DNA from: Gammaproteobacteria bacterium | Lineage (GTDB): Bacteria; Pseudomonadota; Gammaproteobacteria; JAPPPA01 | Length of the DNA: 64,000 nt | NCBI GenBank assembly: GCA_030425645.1 | Contig: JAUHZK010000002.1 | Location: forward strand, 256,487-320,486 | Reading direction: 5' to 3' | In this document: positions 11,254 to 63,566 of the stretch, piece by piece | Numbering within the stretch: position 1 is the first letter of the stretch | Layout of the letters: each line of letters opens with the position of its first letter | Notes under the pieces: generated by a model | Database searches by the model: none | What the model saw: only the letters and a program-made list of their open reading frames with translations | Told to the model about the DNA's origin: nothing | Made by a program: the position numbers and the translations under genes

Positions 11254-14200
11254 CTAGCGGCGGCGCGCCCCGCCTCGGCGTCGGGCTTTAGCGCTAGCCT
11301 CACTAGCAGCCGCGGGCGCGTCCTCAGTGACCACTGCGCTTGGGCGGCCAAACTGAATAGCCGTCGCTGGGCGAGACTCAACTTTGGGTTTCTCAGGAAT
11401 AGGTTCACCGTTGATCAATGGCTCATCCCAGCTGCCAGTTAGATGGAAACGCAACACACCAAGCTCGTCAAACGGCTGCCCAAATAGCTCGTTACCCAGT
11501 AGCAGCAATGCTCCGACCCCAAGCCCGGAAACCAAAGCGCCTACCACCGCGGTCCCGCCTCCAATTTGAGGGCGTACCGTGATCCGCTGATCATAGTCTT
11601 GCTCTAATAAGCCAGCCCGACCAACAATCATGGCATCGGCACCACGAGCTTTAATTTCTAAGTTATCCGTCCACGCATTGCCGTCACTAACGGCAAAGTC
11701 GCCGGTGATTCTGTCGAAGGTAAGGCCGCTTTTGGCGATATCCGAAAAATCCAGCAACAAACGCTTAGGCAAGGTGTAAAAGCTAAATAAGCCTAAGATT
11801 CGTCCCAAGCCCGGATCCACCTGATAAATCTGGCCTTCTTCGAAATCAACCGAAAACCCACCGCTCGCCCGCTCGGCGTCAAACTGAGTCATTGGGCCAG
11901 GCCACTGTAATTTCACGTCAACATTTGCGCCTTTTGCACCGAGCACGTCAGGCAGGTCAATGCCGTTCATTACTGCATCCCAATCACCCGATGACAGTTT
12001 TACTTCTAGCTCACTGTGGTGGCCATGTTCGTAAACATCCCAGCGGCCAGAGGCGTCCAGTGCAAGCTCGCCGCCACGGCTAGTTAACCGCCGCATTACT
12101 AGGCCACTCACGCCTGGTTCGGTAACCACATCAATCTGACCTAAGCGAACGCCCATGTAGCGGCCATCACGTATCCGTGCCCGCACCACAGGTAACTCTC
12201 GCGGATCCACCGTTGACGCTGCTACTGGTGCCGGCGGACCAACAGCCTCAGCCTCAGGTGTACGCACCAAATCAGGCAAATACAAATAATCAAAATCAAC
12301 TTCAATCTGCGCGGCCAAGCGACGCTTCTGCAAGGCACGCGCCGCCTCGCCTAGATCCGCTACCTGTGCCGCACTAACCACGCTATCTGGCACCAGCACC
12401 GTGCCAGCGCCATCGGCGCTTTTCATTGTTAGCTGGGCCGCGTTTTCCTGCCGCCGGATATTAGCGTTCAAGGCCCGCCAATTGATGCCGAAGGCTCTGA
12501 ATTCGTCACTGCGCAAACTGAGATAGTCGAGAAAATCAGGCAGCAGCATGTTGCGCGCCGGCGCCGCCGCAGCCTCGGGTTGTTGCTCCGCAAACCAACT
12601 TAGCAGGTAGTCGAGGTCGCCTTTCGGCAGGTCGACAACCACGCCAATGCCATCTTCGGTTGGCAGCACGGCATTGATATTACCAACCGCGAATTCAGCC
12701 CGACGCAACTCACCATCGTCTTCATCTGCCAGCCACAAGGCGGCACCACCAAGGCCACGTGCGTTCGCGGTAACGGCCATTCCGGAACCGGCGCTGCGAT
12801 CTACAAGCAACTCGAACGGCGCTTGCCACTCAGGCCGTTTCTCGATCCCGCTTGGCCCATTAACGGCCACCCCTTCTAGGCTTGAGGTAACACGAATACG
12901 CTCGCCTGGTGCAGCGCCATCGCGGCCGCTCAAATCGACCTGTAAGGCGCTACTGCCAGACAGAATATTCAGCAGCCAATCCGGCATAAAGCGGCCCATA
13001 AATGCCTTATGCTGAGGCTGCTCATCTAAATCCAGCTGGGTTTCGGCAGTAATTAACATGTCACCGCCTACTAGACTTAAATCCAGCTGCGCCGCAGCAT
13101 CAAAGCCATGAAACTGGCCGCGGATGTCATTTGCTAAAACCCTAGCTTCGGTAAAACCAACGCGGCCATTGATATTGTCCAACGCAAGGAATTCCGAGCT
13201 GCGTAGCTTGGTGTCTTCTAGTACGAGCTCTCCATTCGCCTTTAGCCCTCCAATGTTGCTAACCGGCACATGAAGCTGCAAACTCAAGTCGGCCTCGCCA
13301 GAGGCGGACAAACCTTTTAGTAACGGCGCCACCGGCTCTTTCAGCGGCGACTGCCTTACATAGCCCAACAGTTTAGAAACCGGGGCCGTAGCCTCAGTCA
13401 CAATGTTGACATCGGTCAATCGCAGGTTGGGAATATTTACGTTTAACCGAGTCGGGACAACGCCTTCGGTCTCGGCATGAGCTACCCTCGCCATTAAACC
13501 GATATTTCGGAATAACAGCGCCGCTGTCACATTGCTTAGCGCCGGCCAATCTTCGGCAAACTCAATCGCCCCACCGCTAACATCGGCGTCAACCCGGAAG
13601 CTGCCCTCATTAGCCTCGTAAGGAAAACCCTGCAACGGGCCATCAATACCCACCTCAGCATCGACCCGCCCCGCCAGTAAAGCGCCTTGCAACCAGCTCT
13701 GCGCCGTTGCTGGCGTGAAGGCGGGGATAAAACGCTTCACCAGAGGAACCGTGCCATTTCTAACCTTTCCTTGTAGCTTAATATCACCCGCAACTTTGGG
13801 CCCACCGAGCTGGGCGTTAACCGCTACCACCACCTCAGCAGTCGCCCCTTCCTTAACTAGATTGAGGCTCGGAGCATTGATCGCCAAACCATCAATACGG
13901 CCACTGTTGTCGTCTGTTCTTCGCATCGCAATACTAAGCTGGCCGGCCACGGTATCAACGCTGCGCCGCCCCTCGTAAAGCCACGGCCAATCAATGATCA
14001 ACGAGGAACTGTCTAACTCCACATCGACGACATCATTATCTACTGTGAAACGGCCTGCCAAATTTTCAAAGCCTGGCCAGCCCTTATTCTCATCCGCAGC
14101 TCCAGCCACTTTTCCCGTGCCCCAGCCCAATTCGCTGAAAGCGCCTTTTGCCTGCGTTTTAAGCCCGCCATCGGCACTATGGGAAACATCGAACTGCTCT

Positions 14201-27043: not shown

Positions 27044-27129
27044 GTCCGCCCTTCGACAGGCTCAGGACTAACGGTGTATTGCTCTCACCGCCGTGTGAAG
27101 TTCATCCTGAGCTCGTTGAAGGACATTCG
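27044..27129. repeat. REP-like palindromic element, family copy A: left arm CCGCCCTTCGACAGGCTCAGGAC, right arm TCCTGAGCTCGTTGAAGGAC.
   Basis: Read directly. The arms are reverse complements, and homologous copies lie at 61479-61540, 63483-63566 and, as a partial copy, 30997-31016. Confidence 0.6.
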
Positions 27130-27145
27130 ATTGATTGCATCATAG

Positions 27146-29251
<2,106 letters not shown>

Positions 29252-29402
29252 ATCGTATACAGCCAACGACCGGGCGGCGCTGTGTTACTCTACGCGCCGC
29301 CCCAGTGGGGCAACTTGGCACTGCGGCTGAGAAACCATTAACCGTAGTGACGTTGCAGGACGGTTCCTGCCAAAGCTGAAAAGCCTCACAACGGATAATA
29401 GA

Positions 29403-30701
29403 TTGAGTACTCCAGACCATTTAACGGATACGCTTTTTGCGGATCTAGACCTCGCCCCTACCCTGCATAGCGCCCTTGCCGACGCCGGTTTTAAAAACTG
29501 CACCCCTATTCAAGCGGAATCGATTCCCAAGTTTTTGGAAGGCAAAGACGTTGCTGGCCAAGCCCAAACGGGTACCGGCAAAACCATCGCCTTTTTACTC
29601 TGCACGCTAAACAAGCTGCTACGGGATGAGCCGATGCAAGGCCGCACTAGCCGCGATACCCGCGCACTCATTTTGGCGCCAACTCGCGAGCTAGCGATTC
29701 AAATTGAGAAAGACGCGATCCCGCTGATTGCCGGCACCGACATCAAACTCGGCCTTGCTTATGGCGGCACCGACTGGGAAAAACAGAAAGAAAAAATTGA
29801 GGGTGGTGTCGATATTCTGGTCGGTACGCCCGGCCGCATTATCGACTACTTCAAGCAAGGCGTATTTACGCTGAAGAAATGTGAAGTAGTGGTATTGGAC
29901 GAAGCCGATCGCATGTTCGACCTTGGCTTTATTTCCGACTTGCGCTACTTATTACGCCGCTGCCCTTCTACAGAACATCGCCGTAACCTACTGTTTTCGG
30001 CGACATTATCCGCCAAGGTTTTGGAACTCGCCTACGAGCATATGGGCGACCCAGTATCAGTAAAAATTGAAGCCGACACCATGACCGCCGACAAAGTGCG
30101 TCAGGTGATGTACTACCCCGGCAACCACGAAAAGATTCCGTTGCTAATCGGTCTACTGCAAAAAATGCAGCCCGAACGCACCATGATCTTTATCAACACC
30201 AAATACGAAGCCGAAAATGTTTGGCGTTGGCTCAAAGGCAATGACTTCTCGGTCGAAGTCATCAGTGGCGATGTACGCCAGAAAAAACGCGAGCGTTTAT
30301 TACAGCAGTTTAAAAACGGCGAGTTGGATATTGTCATCGCCACCGACGTAGCCGCGCGTGGGCTACATATCCCTGGCGTAACCCATGTCTTCAACTACGA
30401 CCTGCCGGACGACAAGGAAGATTACGTACACCGTATTGGCCGTACCGCACGCGCCGGTACCGAAGGCGACGCCATTAGCTTTGCTTGCGAAACCTACGCC
30501 TTCAACCTAGGAGATATCGAAGACTATATCGGCCACAAGATTCCGCTAGAGTCGGTCGACCCAGACTTATTAGTCGAGCCAAAGCCGAAAGCGCCTCGCC
30601 CTGAACGTAAAGGACCACCACCTGGCAGTGGCAACCGCAACAGGGGCGGCGGTCGCGGTGGCAATCGCGGCAACTCAGGCGGCGGACGCCGTCGCCGCTA
30701 A
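29403..30701 (+). CDS. rhlB: DEAD-box ATP-dependent RNA helicase RhlB.
   Basis: Q-motif and motif I (CTPIQ...AGQAQTGTGKT), DEAD and SAT are present. The N-terminus aligns closely to E. coli RhlB, and there is a C-terminal RGG-rich tail. Confidence 0.85.
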   Translation: MSTPDHLTDTLFADLDLAPTLHSALADAGFKNCTPIQAESIPKFLEGKDVAGQAQTGTGKTIAFLLCTLNKLLRDEPMQGRTSRDTRALILAPTRELAIQIEKDAIPLIAGTDIKLGLAYGGTDWEKQKEKIEGGVDILVGTPGRIIDYFKQGVFTLKKCEVVVLDEADRMFDLGFISDLRYLLRRCPSTEHRRNLLFSATLSAKVLELAYEHMGDPVSVKIEADTMTADKVRQVMYYPGNHEKIPLLIGLLQKMQPERTMIFINTKYEAENVWRWLKGNDFSVEVISGDVRQKKRERLLQQFKNGELDIVIATDVAARGLHIPGVTHVFNYDLPDDKEDYVHRIGRTARAGTEGDAISFACETYAFNLGDIEDYIGHKIPLESVDPDLLVEPKPKAPRPERKGPPPGSGNRNRGGGRGGNRGNSGGGRRRR

Positions 30702-30724
30702 AATAAAGCACAAAAAAAGGCCCC

Positions 30725-31063
30725 ATCTATTGCAAGGCGTTTGGTGGCGGTTTCGGCCTTTGCAGCATTACCCGTTTGCGGTAAGCGCCCAGTGCGGGCC
30801 GAGCCTATTTTGAGGCATCAAAATAGGCGAAAAATGCTTTACCCGCCGTGCGACCGCTGCGCGGTTCCTTGCGGTGCTCACTAAATCAAGCGCCTGCGGA
30901 ACTCGCTACGCTCAAACAGGCCGCAGGCTCGATCTTGATTTAGCTCCGCTCCTCAGTCGCACAAAGGGCGAAATACTGCTAACCAACTTCCCGCTCGCCC
31001 TGAGCTTGTCGAAGGGTAGCCGAGAAAGTCTTCAACACCCTTGGTAAACGCCTTGCATCTATT
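30725..31063. mobile_element. Putative non-autonomous MITE of 325 bp. It has 11-bp perfect terminal inverted repeats GCAAGGCGTTT / AAACGCCTTGC and is flanked by a 7-bp direct repeat ATCTATT.
   Basis: The TIRs are at 30732-30742 and 31046-31056. The direct repeats are at 30725-30731 and 31057-31063. Removing the element reconstitutes a bidirectional terminator (AAAAAAAGGCCCC-atctatt-GGGGCATTTTTT) about 10 bp from both convergent stop codons. Confidence 0.5.
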
Positions 31064-31085
31064 GGGGCATTTTTTGTGTTCGCCT

Positions 31086-32678
31086 TTAATTCTGCGCCGC
31101 GTCTATAAATAAACTGTGTTCGCAATTTGCGGGCGCGTTGGCCGGGTTACACAAGGCGCTGGGGTCATCAACGGTTGCGCTGCCCTTGCCGTCAATCGTC
31201 GCCGCATAGGCAAGAAACCGTGCGTAGCTCTCGTTATTGGGGCAGTCATTCACTTCGTCATCAGGATACGGATTGGCTGGATGCTCGGTACTCACCATAT
31301 GCGCACCCGAGGCTAACGCGTCTGCCAAACGGGTTTCATAGCTGGCTACCTCTGGGTCGTAATCAAATAGGCAGACCGGCGTGTAGTCTGGGCACTGATT
31401 GGGATCAAACGCACATTGCTCGGCGTTATTACTCGGCGGGCTGTCTGAACGCGTCCGAATCAAGACCCCGGTTTGGGCCGCATCTGCCACCGAGTTACCT
31501 TCACCAAAGCAATCGCCATTCGGGTTATCACAGCGCGAAATAGCGGCATTGGGACCACTGTCGTTCTCTAGAAAAGCCACCCAGTTCTGCACTGGATTAC
31601 CACCCGCAGTGGAGTCACAATCGTCGTCGTTTTGCTCGCGGTAATCGCGCCCGTGCGTGCTGCAATCATTGCTAGCCATCACAAACACCAGCGCTTTACC
31701 GCGGGCCTCATCAATATGCGGCCAACCACCGCAGGTGGTATCAAAACGCACCGCCTCAGCTAAGCTATCGCAGCTGCCTAGCACCTGCGCCGGCGTAATC
31801 AGCTGGTCTTCCTCGCCTTCAGCCGGCTCCGGAAAGACAGCACGGATATCGTTATCAAAATCCCGCCAATGCCCCACTAAAGAACCCTCGTTTGGATCTT
31901 CGGGGAACGAATCCTTCGGCTCAATCATAATCATTGCCGGCAGCGAATTAGGGTTCGCATCTAGGCCGGCTTTAATCATTTCTAAACAACCCATTGTTAG
32001 TGAGCTCGGGTCGGCACCAAAGCGATCACACATGCTGACGGGATCTAAAGCGCTAACGTGATACACCTGCATGTACTGTAGCGGCGACCAATGAATATCA
32101 AGCTCAAAGGAACGCACTCGGTGCTCAAGTAACTGCTTATCTAATGAATCGTGGGAGTAGTTCCAATCGGCCACCAGGCCTGCCAACAAACCCTTCTCGT
32201 GATAACTATTGTGAGTACCCATGGCGACGTACTGGTTAATACGAGGTAATACCGACAATGTAAAGGTCGCAGTCGCGGCCAATTCGCCGTCTGACACGGT
32301 CACCGTGATATCGGTATCCCCCACCGCCCCAAAGTCACCGACGCTAGCCGGCTGTTCGATGCTGGCGGTCCAGATGCCATCGTTCTCTGTAATAACAATT
32401 GCACTATTAGGCACAATGCTTGGATCGCTAGAAACAGCAGAAACCTGCAAATCTGTCGCCGCAGTTTCCTCATCATTCAAAGCCAAACTAAACGGCCCCA
32501 AGCGACCCCTAGTGCCCATTTTTTGATCAGGAATCTCAACGACACTAGGCGCGGTATTGCTGCCCGTAGGCGGTGGCTCACCAGTGCCTGTGCCACCCGA
32601 AGAGTCCACACTACCGGCTCCACCACAAGCCACCAATAGACCCGCCGCTAAAGCGGCTAGCCACTGCTGATAAACCAT
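31086..32678 (-). CDS. Secreted lipoprotein with a PI-PLC X-domain-like phosphodiesterase fold.
   Basis: It has a lipoprotein signal (LLVACGG). Motifs resembling the eukaryotic PLC X-box catalytic histidine regions are present (GTHNSYH; FELDIHW). The C-terminal half is Cys- and Asp-rich. Confidence 0.6.
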   Translation of the reverse strand: MVYQQWLAALAAGLLVACGGAGSVDSSGGTGTGEPPPTGSNTAPSVVEIPDQKMGTRGRLGPFSLALNDEETAATDLQVSAVSSDPSIVPNSAIVITENDGIWTASIEQPASVGDFGAVGDTDITVTVSDGELAATATFTLSVLPRINQYVAMGTHNSYHEKGLLAGLVADWNYSHDSLDKQLLEHRVRSFELDIHWSPLQYMQVYHVSALDPVSMCDRFGADPSSLTMGCLEMIKAGLDANPNSLPAMIMIEPKDSFPEDPNEGSLVGHWRDFDNDIRAVFPEPAEGEEDQLITPAQVLGSCDSLAEAVRFDTTCGGWPHIDEARGKALVFVMASNDCSTHGRDYREQNDDDCDSTAGGNPVQNWVAFLENDSGPNAAISRCDNPNGDCFGEGNSVADAAQTGVLIRTRSDSPPSNNAEQCAFDPNQCPDYTPVCLFDYDPEVASYETRLADALASGAHMVSTEHPANPYPDDEVNDCPNNESYARFLAYAATIDGKGSATVDDPSALCNPANAPANCEHSLFIDAAQN

Positions 32679-43533: not shown

Positions 43534-44133
43534 TTAGCTATTAAATGGCATCGCCGCTTTAAGCGCATTCCAAGCGGCGCGCTTAGCGTCAACGTTACTC
43601 AACATATCGCTAAGCGACGGCAGCTCCAGCGCTTTCGCGGCTAAGCCCGGCGGCGCCTGTAGACCGAAACACCAGAGGTGTTTCACCGAAGCCGGCGGTA
43701 AATGGGTCGGCATGGCCCACAGCAAGTAACACTGTGATTTGTCTACTTCAACCGCCGCCAATACTTTATCCAAAAGCGCTTCCGCCTCAGGCCGTTGGGC
43801 ATCAGCAATATTGGGCAGCACCAACCAAAACGCTACTTCTGTCGCAGCTGTTATTGCCTGATCATTAACCTCTAGTGGAGTGCCGGCGCGTAGGCTCTGA
43901 GCGATCTGTTGCGCTGGAGACAAAGCCGATGACTCAGTCGCCGTACTTGGAGGAGCTTGGGTCGCCCCTAGCGCCGCTTTATCACTTGGAGATGCTGCAG
44001 GGCCCGCCGACGTAGCTGCCGACGAGCCTATTTGGTCTTCTGCAGGCGCATCAGCTAAGTCTTCACTGCCCCTAGGCAACCACACCGGGATGCCCATTTG
44101 CTGTAAATACCAATGACGTGTTTGCGCGTCCAC
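43534..44133 (-). CDS. holD: DNA polymerase III psi subunit with an extended low-complexity linker.
   Basis: The N-terminus MDAQTRHWYLQQMGIPVW matches the E. coli HolD N-terminus (RRDWQLQQLGITQW), and the holD-rimI adjacency is conserved. Confidence 0.6.
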   Translation of the reverse strand: MDAQTRHWYLQQMGIPVWLPRGSEDLADAPAEDQIGSSAATSAGPAASPSDKAALGATQAPPSTATESSALSPAQQIAQSLRAGTPLEVNDQAITAATEVAFWLVLPNIADAQRPEAEALLDKVLAAVEVDKSQCYLLWAMPTHLPPASVKHLWCFGLQAPPGLAAKALELPSLSDMLSNVDAKRAAWNALKAAMPFNS

Positions 44134-44148
44134 TCAGCTACCGGCGTG

Positions 44149-45696
44149 TTAGACGTCGCCGCGCTGCGGGTGCTCGCGCGGCATACTCGCCTCAAGCTTA
44201 TTCAGGGCGCTGATATAAGCTTTCGCTGACGCAATAATGACGTCAGTATCAGCACCATGCCCATTAACCACACGATCATCTTTGCTCAGGCGAACCGTGG
44301 TTTCACCTTGCGAGTCAGTACCATCGGTGACGTTATTCACGGAATAAAGCAACAGACTCGCGCCGCTATTAGCCACGGTCTCAACTGCTTTAAAAATCGC
44401 ATCAACCGGGCCTGAACCAGCCGCCGTCGCCTGTTGCTCAACGCCGTCTACAATCACAGTAATCTCAGCTTGCGGAGTTTCGCCGGTCTCGCTGATCACC
44501 TTAGAGCTGACATAACGGTATTTGTCGGCAACGGCAGCGGCTTCGGTTTCACTGACCAAGGCCTGTAAGTCATCATCAAATACTTCGTGTTTCTTATCAG
44601 CCAAGTCTTTGAAGCGCGTGAAGATGTCGTTTAATGCTTCCTGACTTTCTACTGTGACGCCAAGATCTTCTAACCGCGCTTTAACTGCCGCCCGGCCTGA
44701 GTGTTTGCCCAATACGATCTTATTGTCGCTCCAACCCACATCTTGAGCGCGCATAATTTCGTAGGTCTCACGGTTCTTGATAACCCCATCTTGGTGAATA
44801 CCAGACTCATGAGCAAAAGCATTGGCGCCGACGATGGCCTTGTTTGGTTGAATGGGGAAACCCGTCACCGAAGACACCAAACGCGAAGTCGGCACAATCT
44901 GTGTCGCATCAATATTGGTATCGAGGTTAAAGACATCTCGACGAGTCCGTAAGGCCATCACCACCTCCTCCAAAGAGGCATTACCGGCACGCTCACCTAA
45001 GCCATTAATGGTGCATTCAACTTGGCGAGCACCGTTCATCACAGCGTCTAGTGAGTTCGCTACCGCTAAGCCTAGATCGTTGTGGCAGTGCACAGAGAAG
45101 ATAGCTTTGTCGGCGTTCGGAACACGTTCAATCAATTGCTTGATCAAGGCGCCAAACTGCCACGGCACGTTATAACCCACGGTATCAGGGATATTAATGG
45201 TGCCAGCACCGGCATCAATCACCGCTTCAATTAGGCGGCATAGAAAGTCCGGCTCCGAACGGCCTGCATCTTCCGGCGAAAACTCAACATTGTCGGTAAA
45301 ACCGCGTGCCAATTTAACCGCTGCAACCGCCTGCTCTACCACTTCATCAGGAGTCAGACCTAACTTCTTCTCCATATGAATGGGCGAGCTCGCGATAAAG
45401 GTATGAATACGGCGTTGCGGTGCTGGCGCTAGGGCTGCCGCTGCGCGTTCAATATCAGCCTGCTTAGCACGCGCCAAACCACAAACCGTCGACTCTTTAA
45501 TCACTTCGGCAATAGCTTTTACCGAATCAAAGTCACCGGGGCTGGCAATCGGAAAACCGGCCTCGATAACGTCTACCTTCATACGCTCCAAAGATTTAGC
45601 AATACGTAGCTTTTCTTCTTTGGTCATCGAGGCGCCAGGGCTCTGTTCGCCATCACGCAAGGTAGTATCAAAAATTATGACGCGATCGGTCATCAT
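44149..45696 (-). CDS. leuA: 2-isopropylmalate synthase.
   Basis: [15 protein letters not shown], a HMGL-like TIM barrel, and the LeuA C-terminal regulatory domain. Confidence 0.95.
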
Positions 45697-51200: not shown

Positions 51201-52382
51201 TTAAGCGGCCAACTGCCGCGCTAAGGCACGAGCTTCTTCATCTACCGCCATTAATGCGGCCAAGCTGTCGTGCGCCTCACTGCCCCAAGCTTTGGCATTC
51301 AAAACCTGCTCAACAAGTTCGGCAATATTGGTAAATCCGACTTGCTCATTCAAAAACAGTTCAACCGCAATTTCATTTGCCGCATTTAACGCGGCTGGCG
51401 CTGCACCACCCAACGCTGAAGCCTCACGCGCCAAACGCAAACAAGGGAAACGTTGCTCGTCAGGCGGGAAAAATTCCAAAGCACCGGCTGTGGTTAAATC
51501 AAACAAACCAACGCCGGAATCAATCCGCTCCGGCCATGCCAAGGCATGTGCGATAGGCGTACGCATATCCGGATGCCCTAGCTCAGCCAGTACTGAGCCG
51601 TCGATATACTCCACCAAGGAATGCACAATACTTTTTGGATGCACCACGACGTCGACTTGAGTGTGTGCGCAGTCAAATAACCAGCAGGCCTCAATCACCT
51701 CGAGACCTTTATTCATCATTGTCGCTGAGTCGACCGAGATTTTGGCCCCCATCGACCAGTTTGGGTGCGCGACCGCCTGTGCGGGTGTTGCTTGCTGCAT
51801 TTCTTCCAGTGACCATTCTCGGAACGGACCACCGGAGGCCGTCAGCAAAATGCGTTTAACCGACTGCTTGGCAGCACCACCCTGCGGCCAGCACTGAAAC
51901 ACCGCATTGTGTTCGCTATCAATCGGTAGCAAGGTCGCGCCAGACGCGGCCACGGTATCCATCAACAGCTGACCGGCAACCACTAGGGACTCTTTATTAG
52001 CCAACAACAGCACCTTGCCAGCTTCAGCCGCCGCCAATGCTGATGGAAGACCCGCCGCGCCAACAATGGCCGCCATTACGGTATCCACCGCATCCAATCG
52101 CACAATATCAACCAGCGCCTCGGCACCAGCCAATACTTCTGTCTTCAGCCCTAGTTGTTTTACTTCCGTAGCTAATCGTTGCGCGGCGTCGCGATCTGCT
52201 AGCGCTGCATACTGGGGTTGAAACTGCTGAATTTGCTTTAGCAGGCCGGCCACATCAGCGTTGGCCGTTAATGCCACCACCCGAAATCGCTCCGGATTAC
52301 GAGCCACCACATCCAAGGTGCTACAACCAATACTACCGGTAGCCCCTAGCACGGCTAAGGAGCGAGGAAGCTGATGACTCAT
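51201..52382 (-). CDS. dxr: 1-deoxy-D-xylulose 5-phosphate reductoisomerase.
   Basis: N-terminal GATGSIG NADPH motif, in dxr family layout. Confidence 0.95.
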   Translation of the reverse strand: MSHQLPRSLAVLGATGSIGCSTLDVVARNPERFRVVALTANADVAGLLKQIQQFQPQYAALADRDAAQRLATEVKQLGLKTEVLAGAEALVDIVRLDAVDTVMAAIVGAAGLPSALAAAEAGKVLLLANKESLVVAGQLLMDTVAASGATLLPIDSEHNAVFQCWPQGGAAKQSVKRILLTASGGPFREWSLEEMQQATPAQAVAHPNWSMGAKISVDSATMMNKGLEVIEACWLFDCAHTQVDVVVHPKSIVHSLVEYIDGSVLAELGHPDMRTPIAHALAWPERIDSGVGLFDLTTAGALEFFPPDEQRFPCLRLAREASALGGAAPAALNAANEIAVELFLNEQVGFTNIAELVEQVLNAKAWGSEAHDSLAALMAVDEEARALARQLAA

Positions 52383-61112: not shown

Positions 61113-62399
61113 ATGAACCCAGCCATTAATGACCTGCACCCCTACCCGTTTCAAAAGCTAGAAAAACTACTAGCCGAAAAACCGTGGACAGGCCCAGAAC
61201 GTGGCATGGGTGAGGCGATTCGCTTAACCATTGGCGAACCACGCCACGCGCCGCCACAGTTTGTTTTGGATGTGTGGCAAAACGCCTTGCCGCAAGTAGC
61301 CAAATACCCAACCACCCTTGGTACCCCAGAGCTACGCCAAGCCATTAGCCAATGGCTAAAACAACGCTTTAACGCCGACGTGAGCGCCGCCACGCAAATC
61401 TTGCCGGTTAACGGTACACGCGAAGCGCTATTCGCCTTTGCCCAAGCGCATATCGACGCATCAACGCCTTCGCAATTGTCCCGCCCTTCGATGAACTCAG
61501 GGCTAGCGGAAAACGTTCGTCCTGAGCTTGTCGAAGGACAAACACTAGCAAACCAACCACTCGTCGCCAGTCCTAACCCCTTCTACCAAATTTACGAAGG
61601 CGCAGCCTTACTCGCCGGCGCCAAGCCCTACTTCGTTAATTGCGACGCCAGCGGTTTAGCCGACTTTGACGCCGTTAGCGCTGACGTATGGCAGCAAGTG
61701 CAACTGGTTTACGCTTGCTCTCCCGGCAACCCCACTGGCGCCGTGGTAAGCAAAGAGCAATGGCAGCGTTTAATCGCACTATCGGATGAGCACGACTTCA
61801 TCATTGCCGCCGACGAATGTTATTCCGAGATTTGGTTTGACGAACCACCGGTTGGCCTGCTGCAAGTCTGCGCCGAAATCGGCCGTAACGATTTTAAAAA
61901 CTGCCTCGTGTTCCACTCACTCAGCAAACGCTCCAACCTGCCCGGTTTACGTTCAGGTTTCGTGGCTGGTGACGCCACAGCACTGGCCAGCTTCCTTAAA
62001 TACCGCACCTACCACGGCTGCGCCATGCCTATCCCTAGCCAACTGGCCAGCATTGAAGCCTGGAACGATGAAAGCCATGTAGAAGAAAACCGCCGGCTGT
62101 ACCGCGAGAAATTCCAACGCGTATTGGAAATACTAGAACCGGTAATGCAGGTCAAAAAACCAGACGCCAGCTTCTACCTGTGGCCCACGCTTAACGATAT
62201 CTGCGGCGGTGACGACGAAGCTTTTGCGCAAGGCCTACACCATGAACAAGGCGTAACCGTGTTACCGGGTAGCTACCTCTCGCGCGACACCGACAACGGC
62301 AACCCCGGCGCGGGTCATGTGCGCATCTCACTGGTTGCCAGTGTTGAAGAATGCGTAGAGGCCGCCAATCGCATCGCCCAATTCGTTCGCACAAACTAA
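61113..62399 (+). CDS. dapC: Class I PLP aminotransferase, probably N-succinyldiaminopimelate aminotransferase DapC. It contains an in-frame palindromic-element insertion.
   Basis: The context map-glnD-dapC-dapD is Pseudomonas-type. Aminotransferase class I motifs are present (NPxNPTG, SKR). Confidence 0.7.
   Translation: MNPAINDLHPYPFQKLEKLLAEKPWTGPERGMGEAIRLTIGEPRHAPPQFVLDVWQNALPQVAKYPTTLGTPELRQAISQWLKQRFNADVSAATQILPVNGTREALFAFAQAHIDASTPSQLSRPSMNSGLAENVRPELVEGQTLANQPLVASPNPFYQIYEGAALLAGAKPYFVNCDASGLADFDAVSADVWQQVQLVYACSPGNPTGAVVSKEQWQRLIALSDEHDFIIAADECYSEIWFDEPPVGLLQVCAEIGRNDFKNCLVFHSLSKRSNLPGLRSGFVAGDATALASFLKYRTYHGCAMPIPSQLASIEAWNDESHVEENRRLYREKFQRVLEILEPVMQVKKPDASFYLWPTLNDICGGDDEAFAQGLHHEQGVTVLPGSYLSRDTDNGNPGAGHVRISLVASVEECVEAANRIAQFVRTN
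61479..61540. repeat. REP-like palindromic element, family copy C, lying in-frame within the dapC CDS. It encodes approximately SRPSMNSGLAENVRPELVEGQ.
   Basis: Left arm CCCGCCCTTCGATGAACTCAGGGCTAGCGG, loop aaaacgtt, right arm CGTCCTGAGCTTGTCGAAGGAC. The arms are homologous to those of the intergenic copies. Confidence 0.6.
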
Positions 62400-63482: not shown

Positions 63483-63566
63483 CCCTTCGACTCTTCGACA
63501 AGCTCAGAGCTAGGGCGAACGGTAGCAATCCGCTAGTCCTGAGCCCGTCGAAGGACGGAACCCGTT
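63483..63566. repeat. REP-like palindromic element, family copy D, directly after the dapD stop.
   Basis: Left arm CTTCGACAAGCTCAGAGCTAGGGCGAACGG, right arm CCGCTAGTCCTGAGCCCGTCGAAGGAC. Confidence 0.6.

What the first reader, a model, noticed from the sequence alone, without database searches (positions are those of the whole stretch)
30712..31076. A 325-bp element with 11-bp terminal inverted repeats and a 7-bp direct duplication is inserted into the loop of a bidirectional terminator
Between the convergent genes rhlB (+) and the PLC-like lipoprotein gene (-), the sequence reads AAAAAAAGGCCCC-ATCTATT-[GCAAGGCGTTT ... AAACGCCTTGC]-ATCTATT-GGGGCATTTTTT. If the bracketed 325 bp and one ATCTATT copy are deleted, what remains is a textbook bidirectional rho-independent terminator, with a 6-bp GC stem, a 7-nt loop and A/T tracts on both sides. 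That terminator would sit about 10 bp from each stop codon. The outer arms are inverted while the 7-mer is direct. This is what a transposition with target-site duplication into the hairpin loop would produce. The element has no ORF. It carries internal perfect hairpins, for example GCCTATTTTGA-ggca-TCAAAATAGGC at 30812-30837, and a partial REP-family copy, so it looks like a composite MITE. Its presence splits the terminator and could alter termination of rhlB and the PLC-like gene.
Basis: partly seen in the sequence, partly recalled or inferred. Interest (0 to 1): 0.65.

Follow-up and report, generated by a model that had tools for sequence, protein, structure and literature searches.

The report
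Orphan MITE-like insert splitting a terminator
A 325-bp non-coding, transposon-like DNA piece sits exactly in the loop of the shared transcription terminator between two convergent genes of an uncultured gammaproteobacterium; it is a genuine insertion, but I saw only this one copy, so its family and its transposase are unknown.

Summary
Window 30732-31056 (325 bp) has perfect 11-bp terminal inverted repeats (GCAAGGCGTTT/AAACGCCTTGC). It is flanked by a direct ATCTATT, or by 9 nt if the ambiguous C and G are counted. Outside that lie the two halves of a hairpin (GCCCC/GGGGC) with A7 and T6 tracts.

Removing the element and one repeat restores a strong bidirectional intrinsic terminator (-22 and -19.8 kcal/mol). 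Four loci of the sister clade (rhlB 92.6% identical in L003, the one locus measured) have only a 48-57 bp rhlB-PLC spacer there. That spacer holds an intact bidirectional terminator and no element. This fits a transposase-type insertion with a target-site duplication centred on the hairpin dyad.

The element has no coding signal and no Rfam match. It folds back strongly (z -5.6 to -6.3) and carries a degenerate copy of the genome's REP doublet.

MITE family membership is not shown. There is no second copy in about 72 kb of host DNA, in relatives, plasmids, phages or IMG/VR, and no cognate transposase. The genome and metagenome collections did not return the host locus, so those negatives are weak. 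Four independent assemblies break inside the element, which is unexplained.

Verdict: a real but ordinary kind of feature, a new member of a known kind.

The parts
29403..30701 (+). rhlB-like DEAD-box RNA helicase gene with an RGG-rich tail. Its 3' end faces the element.
   Evidence: ORF and translation. Pfam DEAD plus Helicase_C on the identical gene in L001. JGI names it 'ATP-dependent RNA helicase RhlB'.
30712..30724 (.). Left half of the split bidirectional terminator: A7 tract, then GGCCCC.
   Evidence: Sequence. It pairs with 31064-31075 in the reconstructed empty site, at -22 kcal/mol and z -5.4.
30725..30731 (.). Left copy of the direct repeat ATCTATT, the presumed target-site duplication. 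It could extend to 30724-30732.
   Evidence: (D8).
30732..31056 (.). The 325-bp inserted element: non-coding, fold-back, MITE-like.
   Evidence: It is absent from the syntenic site in L003, L018, L019 and L021.
30732..30742 (+). Left terminal inverted repeat, GCAAGGCGTTT.
   Evidence: 0 mismatches.
30803..30828 (.). Perfect internal hairpin, GCCTATTTTGA-ggca-TCAAAATAGGC.
   Evidence: I7. It is present in both RNA folds.
30848..30962 (.). Inner palindromic module. It has imperfect inverted arms at 30848-30864 and 30946-30962 around a long hairpin at 30881-30943 (perfect arms CTAAATCAAG / CTTGATTTAG). All four contig breaks (30844, 30846, 30854, 30945) fall within a few bases of, or just inside, this module's two inverted arms.
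   Evidence: I3, I10. Contig ends.
30940..31035 (.). Degenerate copy of the genome's REP doublet. The right arm, CCCTGAGCTTGTCGAAGGG, is well kept and the left arm is decayed.
   Evidence: blastn and nhmmer hits to the doublets at 27049-27122, 61484-61537 and 63490-63554. Alignment.
31046..31056 (-). Right terminal inverted repeat, AAACGCCTTGC on the + strand.
   Evidence: 0 mismatches.
31057..31063 (.). Right copy of the direct repeat ATCTATT.
   Evidence: (D8).
31064..31075 (.). Right half of the split terminator: GGGGC, an A, then the T6 tract.
31086..32678 (-). Ca2+-dependent PI-PLC-like lipoprotein gene, convergent with rhlB.
   Evidence: ORF and translation with an LVAC lipobox. Pfam PF16670.

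Best explanation
The 325 bp are a non-autonomous transposable element, an IS-derived MITE-like sequence. A transposase supplied in trans inserted it once into the loop of the bidirectional intrinsic terminator shared by rhlB and the PLC-like gene.

**Inferred mechanism.**
- The transposase made staggered cuts 7 bp apart (possibly 9) placed symmetrically about the dyad of the hairpin GCCCCA-TCTAT-TGGGGC.
- Repair of the gaps duplicated ATCTATT.
- The palindromic, A/T-flanked terminator DNA probably served as a favoured symmetric target for a dimeric transpososome.

**Inferred consequence.**
- The two stem halves are now 332 bp apart, so neither transcript meets a local terminator hairpin at its old position.
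- Each transcript must read through the whole structured element.
- Only at the far side can the TIRs and the old stem halves pair to rebuild a hairpin base followed by a U tract.
- Both mRNAs would therefore gain about 330 nt of mutually complementary 3' UTR, and termination is probably weakened or delayed.

**Shown versus inferred.**
- Shown: the anatomy, the absence of the element in relatives, the non-coding nature and the fold-back.
- Inferred: the transposase class, the target preference and the effect on termination.
For: - **Transposon anatomy.** Perfect 11-bp TIRs lie directly next to a 7-9 bp direct repeat. This is the only such configuration in the window, against 0.1 per shuffled window at the looser 10/6 threshold.
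- **Restored terminator.** Deleting the element and one repeat restores a terminator that folds at -22 kcal/mol on the + RNA and -19.8 on the - RNA. Both have z about -5.3 and none of 200 shuffles does as well.
- **Symmetry.** The duplication is centred on the hairpin dyad, as read directly from the sequence.
- **Relatives lack it.** Four loci of the nearest clade keep rhlB and PLC convergent (L003: rhlB region 92.6% nt identity, PLC 85% aa). Their spacer is 48-57 bp and consists of an intact bidirectional terminator, AAAAAGGCCTCTT.AAGAGGCCTTTTT, with no element.
- **Non-coding.** There is no protein similarity in any frame and no Rfam family.
- **Fold-back.** The element folds back strongly, as MITEs do. 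DNA z is -6.2 and RNA z is -5.6 and -6.3, with the TIRs and outer stem halves paired in both the minimum-energy and centroid structures.
- **Junctions.** The junction hairpins are weak, at -4.9 and -4.7 kcal/mol, no better than shuffles.
- **Precedent.** IS elements of five families are known to target extragenic palindromes (PMC1525189). MITE hallmarks are TIRs, target duplications, no transposase and stable stem-loops (PMC3184786).
Against: - **No second copy.** None in the 64-kb window, in about 8 kb beyond it, in sister-clade loci, in plasmids or phages, or in IMG/VR.
- **Collection scans.** The TIR-gap-TIR scans of 185,579 species genomes and of the JGI metagenome collection returned only unrelated chance pairs.
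- **No empty site.** No exact empty site was found.
- **No transposase.** No transposase or IS with these ends was found.
- **Short TIRs.** The TIRs are only 11 bp, with no subterminal symmetry.

The weight of these negatives is limited. Neither large scan recovered the host's own locus, so the host genome is not in those collections.

The sister-clade terminator has a different stem sequence. It shows absence of the element, but it is not a base-perfect empty site.
Confidence: 0.68

Rival explanations
1. Stepwise mosaic, like a BIME. The spacer grew by several independent small insertions of palindromic units (REP doublet, inner hairpin module and others) into and next to the terminator. On this view the 11-bp inverted ends and the 7-bp repeat are partly fortuitous, not the ends of one mobile unit.
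For: - The interior is modular. It has a degenerate REP doublet of a family that is mobile in this lineage.
- It also has a separate 115-bp palindromic module and a separate perfect hairpin.
- A second 7-nt direct repeat, GGCGAAA (30826-30832 and 30967-30973), brackets the inner module (sequence, D5).
- Assemblies break inside, not at the ends.
- No second full copy was found.
Against: - A perfect 11-bp inverted repeat abutting a perfect 7-9 bp direct repeat is expected about 0.006 times per 64 kb.
- Here it is also exactly centred in a hairpin loop.
- Nested insertions into an already inserted element would explain the modularity equally well.
- The GGCGAAA repeat is at chance level for 7-mers in 325 bp.
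Confidence: 0.12
2. One-off mobilisation or remnant. Either an autonomous IS inserted here and then lost its transposase gene by internal deletion in place, or two IS ends mobilised a piece of ordinary intergenic DNA once. On this view there never was a multi-copy MITE family.
For: - The TIR and duplication anatomy is the same as in the best explanation.
- Only a single copy is visible.
- The interior looks like host intergenic DNA, including a host REP doublet.
Against: - No trace of decayed transposase coding sequence appears in any frame.
- The strong overall fold-back is more typical of amplified MITEs.
- This cannot be separated from the best explanation without the full genome.
Confidence: 0.15
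3. An ancestral, functional structured RNA or 3'-UTR element whose symmetry reflects RNA structure, not mobility.
For: - Both strands fold very stably (z -5.6 and -6.3).
- The sequence is identical in all host contigs.
Against: - It is absent from all four sister-clade loci, which have a compact terminator instead.
- RNA structure does not explain a direct 7-9 nt repeat.
- No Rfam family matches, even at E up to 10.
- The host contigs are one strain-level population, so their identity carries no information on conservation.
Confidence: 0.04

Closest known systems
Bacterial MITEs (for example Nezha, Correia/NEMIS, ERIC, IMU), as reviewed in PMC3184786
   Same: - Small (325 bp) with no transposase.
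- Terminal inverted repeats and a flanking target-site duplication.
- A very stable long stem-loop fold.
- An intergenic location at gene 3' ends.
- A filled versus unfilled site when related genomes are compared.
   Different: - No second copy and no IS with matching ends were found, so the defining multi-copy and trans-mobilisation features are unverified.
- The TIRs are short (11 bp).
- There is no sequence similarity to anything in plasmids, phages or IMG/VR.
IS1397 / ISKpn1 (IS3 family) and other REP-targeting IS elements of the IS110, IS4, IS256 and IS5 families (PMC1525189; Clement et al. 1999, as cited there)
   Same: A mobile element inserted inside an extragenic hairpin-forming palindrome at the 3' end of genes. 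This fits symmetric or structured-target recognition by the transposase.
   Different: - Those are autonomous IS elements that target the multi-copy REP/PU family. Here a non-coding element sits in a unique intrinsic terminator.
- From my own knowledge, IS3-family ends are TG...CA with 3-4 bp duplications, and IS110 members have no TIR or duplication. Neither fits GCAAGG...CCTTGC with 7-9 bp.
IS231A (IS4 family) target preference GGG(N)5CCC flanked by A/T-rich bent DNA (recalled from Hallet et al. 1994; not checked here)
   Same: A symmetric target of short G/C runs separated by a few bases and flanked by A/T tracts, with the staggered cut centred on the dyad.
   Different: - Polarity and spacing differ: CCCC-N7-GGGG here.
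- The duplication is 10-12 bp for IS231A against 7-9 bp here.
- No IS4-type transposase or end sequence was identified. This is a lead from memory only.
REP doublets / REPINs and BIMEs
   Same: The element contains a degenerate copy of the genome's own REP doublet. It lies where REPs and BIMEs usually lie, between convergent genes.
   Different: - The whole 325 bp is not a repeat of that family.
- From my own knowledge, REPINs are spread by RAYT tyrosine transposases without TIR-plus-duplication signatures.

Membership tests
Bacterial MITE (non-autonomous TIR transposon) | Short (under about 0.5 kb) with no transposase or other coding capacity | tested here: met
   The element is 325 bp. The six-frame translation gave no hit at E<=10 among 5.8 billion proteins. 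A phmmer search of the longest open frame gave only repeat-protein false positives.
Bacterial MITE (non-autonomous TIR transposon) | Terminal inverted repeats | tested here: met
   Perfect 11-bp TIRs at 30732-30742 and 31046-31056.
Bacterial MITE (non-autonomous TIR transposon) | Flanking target-site duplication, and a filled versus empty site in related genomes | tested here: met
   A direct repeat of 7 bp (up to 9) abuts both ends. Four sister-clade loci have the terminator without the element. No base-perfect empty site was found, but the collection searched lacks the host.
Bacterial MITE (non-autonomous TIR transposon) | Stable long stem-loop fold | tested here: met
   z is -6.2 for DNA and -5.6 and -6.3 for the two RNA strands. 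No shuffle folds as well.
Bacterial MITE (non-autonomous TIR transposon) | Multiple copies in the genome | tested here: inconclusive
   One copy in about 72 kb of host DNA. None in other collections. The genome and metagenome scans did not return the host's own locus, so the host genome is not in them. Recurrent contig breaks inside the element hint at repetition or polymorphism but do not prove it.
Bacterial MITE (non-autonomous TIR transposon) | Ends shared with an autonomous IS that supplies the transposase | not testable with these tools
   No ISfinder-type library of IS ends is available. There is no other TIR pair in the window. A literature string search gave only unrelated papers, most of them primer listings.
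REP / BIME (REPIN) repeats | The feature as a whole is a member of the short, high-copy palindromic family of the genome | tested here: not met
   Only 30940-31035 aligns to the REP doublets of the window. The other roughly 230 bp have no counterpart.
IS3-family hairpin-loop targeting elements (IS1397 / ISKpn1) | Encodes its own OrfAB transposase, with TG...CA ends and a 3-4 bp duplication (features from established knowledge) | tested here: not met
   There is no ORF. The ends are GC...GC and the duplication is 7-9 bp. Only the behaviour, insertion into a hairpin loop, is alike.
Known structured RNA families (Rfam 15) | A covariance-model match | tested here: not met
   No match at gathering scores over the whole window. 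Only two chance-level hits appeared at E up to 10, both outside the element.
Bidirectional intrinsic terminator (the reconstructed target site) | A GC-rich stem followed by a U tract on both strands, between convergent genes, and conserved in position in relatives | tested here: met
   Fold energies are -22 and -19.8 kcal/mol with z about -5.3. A7 and T6 tracts flank the stem. A homologous terminator sits at the same place in L003, L018, L019 and L021. Function was not assayed.

The most novel reading that the evidence does not exclude
The element could be the first visible member of an undescribed IS/MITE family whose transposase specifically recognises intrinsic-terminator hairpins. It would cut symmetrically about the hairpin dyad, giving a 7-9 bp duplication of the loop. 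Its interior would itself be dynamic (a nested repeat, or an indel or inversion polymorphism in the population), which would explain why four independent assemblies break near its internal inverted repeats. Such a family would systematically lengthen and rewire 3' UTRs of convergent genes.
Probability: 0.12. Interest if true: 0.55.

Novelty: new member of a known kind. Interest (0 to 1): 0.3.

Why it matters
If the reading is right, this is a clean natural example of a small transposon splitting a shared bidirectional terminator. It would add about 330 nt of mutually complementary, highly structured 3' UTR to an RNA helicase gene and a phospholipase gene. That makes it a convenient case for asking two questions: how intrinsic terminators tolerate large insertions in their loops, and whether palindromic terminators are preferred transposition targets. 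It also flags that this uncultured gammaproteobacterial lineage has active small repeats. One REP doublet sits in frame inside dapC and is missing from a 97%-identical homologue. Beyond that, it is one more bacterial MITE-like element, and it is not surprising to specialists.

Tried and rejected
**Other copies in the window.**
- blastn with word size 7, nhmmer, and a scan for TIR pairs with up to 2 mismatches found only the element itself and the REP piece.
- The third perfect GCAAGGCGTTT, at 61280-61290, lies inside the dapC-like coding sequence with no partner. I take it as chance.

**TIR-gap-TIR pattern scans.**
- Genome contigs gave 2 hits, in Turneriella and Lachnospiraceae. They share only the 11-mers with the element.
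- Metagenome contigs gave 5 hits, with no similarity to the element beyond the 11-mers; three (L013, L016, L017) read as long inverted repeats.
- Viral contigs gave nothing.
- Neither large scan returned the host locus, so these negatives say little about the host genome.

**Empty site.** An exact 23-mer of the reconstructed empty site had no match in metagenome contigs. The same caveat applies.

**Element sub-sequences.** Six sub-sequences had no match in IMG/VR.

**Plasmids and phages.** A 'distant' blastn found only the 34-nt REP piece, in a Novosphingobium replicon listed in the plasmid collection.

**Spurious-ORF trick.**
- The concatenated six-frame translation found nothing among 5.8 billion proteins.
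- A phmmer search of the 77-aa open frame against 1.84 billion representatives gave 4 hits at E about 1e-6. All are long internally repetitive proteins, and I reject them as compositional false positives.

**Rfam.** Nothing relevant. No tRNA or tmRNA. No promoter-like site in or next to the element.

**Junction hairpins.** The scanner flagged terminator-like hairpins at both junctions. I rejected them as functional substitutes because they fold at only -4.9 and -4.7 kcal/mol, no better than shuffles.

**Literature.** A string search for the TIR returned only unrelated papers, most of them primer listings.

**Walking out of the window.**
- One side gave about 8 kb more sequence with no copy.
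- The other side, and two further window proteins, were not on record.

**Other TIR-plus-repeat candidates in the window.** Those at looser thresholds (43686-44546, 52009-52322, 12187-12368) occur at the chance rate; 43686-44546 overlaps called ORFs, and the other two were judged from their end sequences only.

Full report
**1. What is there**

After the rhlB stop (ending at 30701) the order is:
- A7 (30712-30718)
- GGCCCC (30719-30724)
- ATCTATT (30725-30731)
- GCAAGGCGTTT (30732-30742)
- 303 bp of interior
- AAACGCCTTGC (31046-31056)
- ATCTATT (31057-31063)
- GGGGC-A-T6 (31064-31075)
- the stop of the convergent PLC-like gene (31086-31088)

The repeat finder and the pattern search confirm the perfect 11-bp inverted ends. 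They show that the exact direct repeat is 9 nt, CATCTATTG, because the element begins with G and ends with C. The duplication length is therefore 7, 8 or 9 bp, and the reconstructed empty site is the same in each case.

The flanking genes are as stated:
- A DEAD-box helicase that JGI annotates as RhlB.
- A PF16670 PI-PLC protein with a lipoprotein signal.

**2. Is it more than chance?**

I scanned the whole window for a perfect inverted repeat of at least 10 bp directly abutted by a direct repeat of at least 6 bp. Only this site was found. Sixty block-shuffled windows gave 0.1 such sites per window. That is about 0.006 for 11 plus 7 bp, before counting that the site is bracketed by the two halves of a hairpin with A and T tracts.

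The same 325 bp occur base for base in independent assemblies: L001 and L025 in full, and L002 and L026-L028 in part. It is not an assembly artefact.

**3. The target was a terminator**

With the element and one ATCTATT removed, the + RNA folds at -22 kcal/mol and the - RNA at -19.8. The stem is GCCCCA/UGGGGC with a 5-nt loop, extended by A/U-tract pairing. Both have z about -5.3 and none of 200 shuffles does as well.

The duplicated heptamer is exactly centred on the dyad of the 17-nt palindrome GCCCC-ATCTATT-GGGGC.

The scanner flags small hairpins at the two new junctions. They fold at only -4.9 and -4.7 kcal/mol, no better than shuffles. The local terminators are therefore destroyed.

**4. 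Relatives**

The PLC protein has no relatives at 90-99% identity. Its 90% cluster holds only the exact sequence.

The nearest clade (in L003, PLC 85% aa identity and rhlB region 92.6% nt identity) keeps the same convergent rhlB-PLC arrangement. In four loci from different samples (L003, L018, L019, L021) the spacer is only 48-57 bp. It consists of an intact bidirectional terminator, AAAAAGGCCTCTT.AAGAGGCCTTTTT, which folds at -18.9 kcal/mol, and there is no element.

The ancestral state at this site was therefore a compact bidirectional terminator, and the 325 bp are a gain in the window's lineage. This is not a base-perfect empty site, because the stem sequence differs. More distant homologues have lost the synteny.

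**5. What the insert is made of**

- No frame has any protein similarity. The only phmmer hits of the longest open frame are internally repetitive proteins, which I reject.
- No Rfam family matches, even at E up to 10.
- There is no promoter-like site.
- The element folds back very strongly. DNA z is -6.2 and RNA z is -5.6 and -6.3. The TIRs and the old stem halves are paired at the base in both the minimum-energy and centroid structures.

Inside the element are three modules:
- A perfect 11+11 hairpin at 30803-30828.
- A 115-bp palindromic module at 30848-30962, built around a long hairpin at 30881-30943.
- A degenerate copy of the genome's REP doublet at about 30940-31035. Intact doublets lie at 27049-27122, 61484-61537 and 63490-63554.

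**6. Is it a family?**

This could not be settled.
- There is no second copy in the window, in about 8 kb beyond it, or in any fetched locus of relatives.
- There is none in plasmids or phages, apart from the REP piece.
- There is none in IMG/VR.
- The TIR-gap-TIR scans of the species-representative genomes and of the JGI metagenome collection returned only unrelated chance pairs, some of them long inverted repeats.
- The reconstructed empty site had no exact match.
- Neither large scan returned the host's own locus. The host is not in those collections, so these negatives are weak.
- No IS with matching ends is known to me, and none could be searched for.

**7. An unexplained hint**

Four contigs from four different samples stop inside the element. 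All are identical to the window up to the last base.
- L002, coming from the PLC side, stops at 30846.
- L027 and L028, coming from the rhlB side, stop at 30844 and 30854.
- L026 stops at 30945.

Contigs carrying these genes are mostly 20-50 kb. A random break in a given 325-bp stretch is therefore about a 1% event per contig.

The break points sit next to the internal inverted repeat (30848-30864 and 30946-30962). Possible causes are:
- a nested repeat present elsewhere in the genome or community;
- a population polymorphism (indel, inversion or a further insertion);
- a sequencing drop-out.

**8. Mechanism proposed**

A DDE-type transposase acting in trans cut the terminator DNA with a 7-bp (or 9-bp) stagger symmetric about the hairpin dyad and joined the element's 11-bp ends. 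Gap repair duplicated the loop.

A palindromic, A/T-flanked target suits a two-fold symmetric transpososome. IS elements of five families are already known to target extragenic palindromes (PMC1525189). MITE hallmarks are exactly those seen here (PMC3184786).

The consequence is inferred, not shown. Both transcripts must traverse the element, gaining about 330 nt of mutually complementary structured 3' UTR. Termination would depend on long-range re-pairing of the stem halves ahead of the U tract.

**9. Comparison and verdict**

The element works like a bacterial MITE, and like REP-targeting IS elements in its choice of site. Membership in any named family is not established. Four MITE criteria are met: small and non-coding, TIRs, a duplication with an unfilled site in relatives, and fold-back. 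Copy number is inconclusive. A cognate IS is not testable here.

It is not a REP/BIME as a whole, not an IS3-type element and not a known RNA family. I rate it a new member of a known kind, of modest interest.

The host is an uncultured gammaproteobacterium. The closest homologues carrying an organism name in the listing are only about 57-60% identical in DapC; they include Pokkaliibacter, Aestuariicella, Marinobacterium and Pseudomonas.

Noticed in passing
window 61113-62399 (+), insert at about 61455-61553; REP doublet at 61484-61537: A REP doublet lies in frame inside the dapC-like succinyldiaminopimelate aminotransferase gene. It adds about 28 residues (…STPSQLSRPSMNSGLAENVRPELVEGQTLANQ…) that have no counterpart in the solved homologue 3jtx. 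A 97%-identical homologue (P0033, 400 aa) lacks the insert. P0032 (90%) has it. P0034 has a shorter, different insert at the same spot. More distant homologues are 394-411 aa long (most 396-400) and lack it. This is an RPE-like, recently polymorphic in-frame repeat insertion in a biosynthetic gene.
   Followed up: yes
window 30844-30854 and 30945; loci L002, L026, L027, L028: Four contigs from four different samples end inside the 325-bp element, next to its internal inverted repeat. Two others (L001, L025) run through it. This suggests a nested repeat, a population polymorphism or a sequencing drop-out. It is unresolved.
   Followed up: partly
window 27625-29882: 134 of the 136 differences between the window and L001 fall in this 2.3-kb stretch (the oxidoreductase gene plus the 5' part of rhlB), which is about 6% divergent. 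The same differences recur in L025-L028, and the remaining roughly 11 kb are essentially identical. This looks like a homologous-recombination tract that sets the window's strain apart.
   Followed up: partly
window 27049-27122 and 63490-63554: Two further intergenic REP doublets of the family GTCCTTCGACAAGCTCAGGAC … GTCCTGAGCTTGTCGAAGGAC. In translation they give the widespread FDKLR / PELVEG motifs. A 34-nt piece also matches a Novosphingobium replicon in the plasmid collection.
   Followed up: partly
L023 5278-11484 (just beyond the window's right end): Directly after the dapD-arsC-M20 peptidase genes comes a tyrosine integrase gene. It is followed by HigB-like toxin and HTH genes, an AbiGi gene and several unannotated ORFs. 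This is probably an integrated island bordering the window.
   Followed up: no
window 29184-29402 compared with L001 9277-9495: In L001 the gene caller extended rhlB to 505 aa, and in some Logan contigs to 499 aa. The window has stop codons upstream and supports only the 432-aa form starting at TTG 29403. The long forms are probably over-extended calls.
   Followed up: partly
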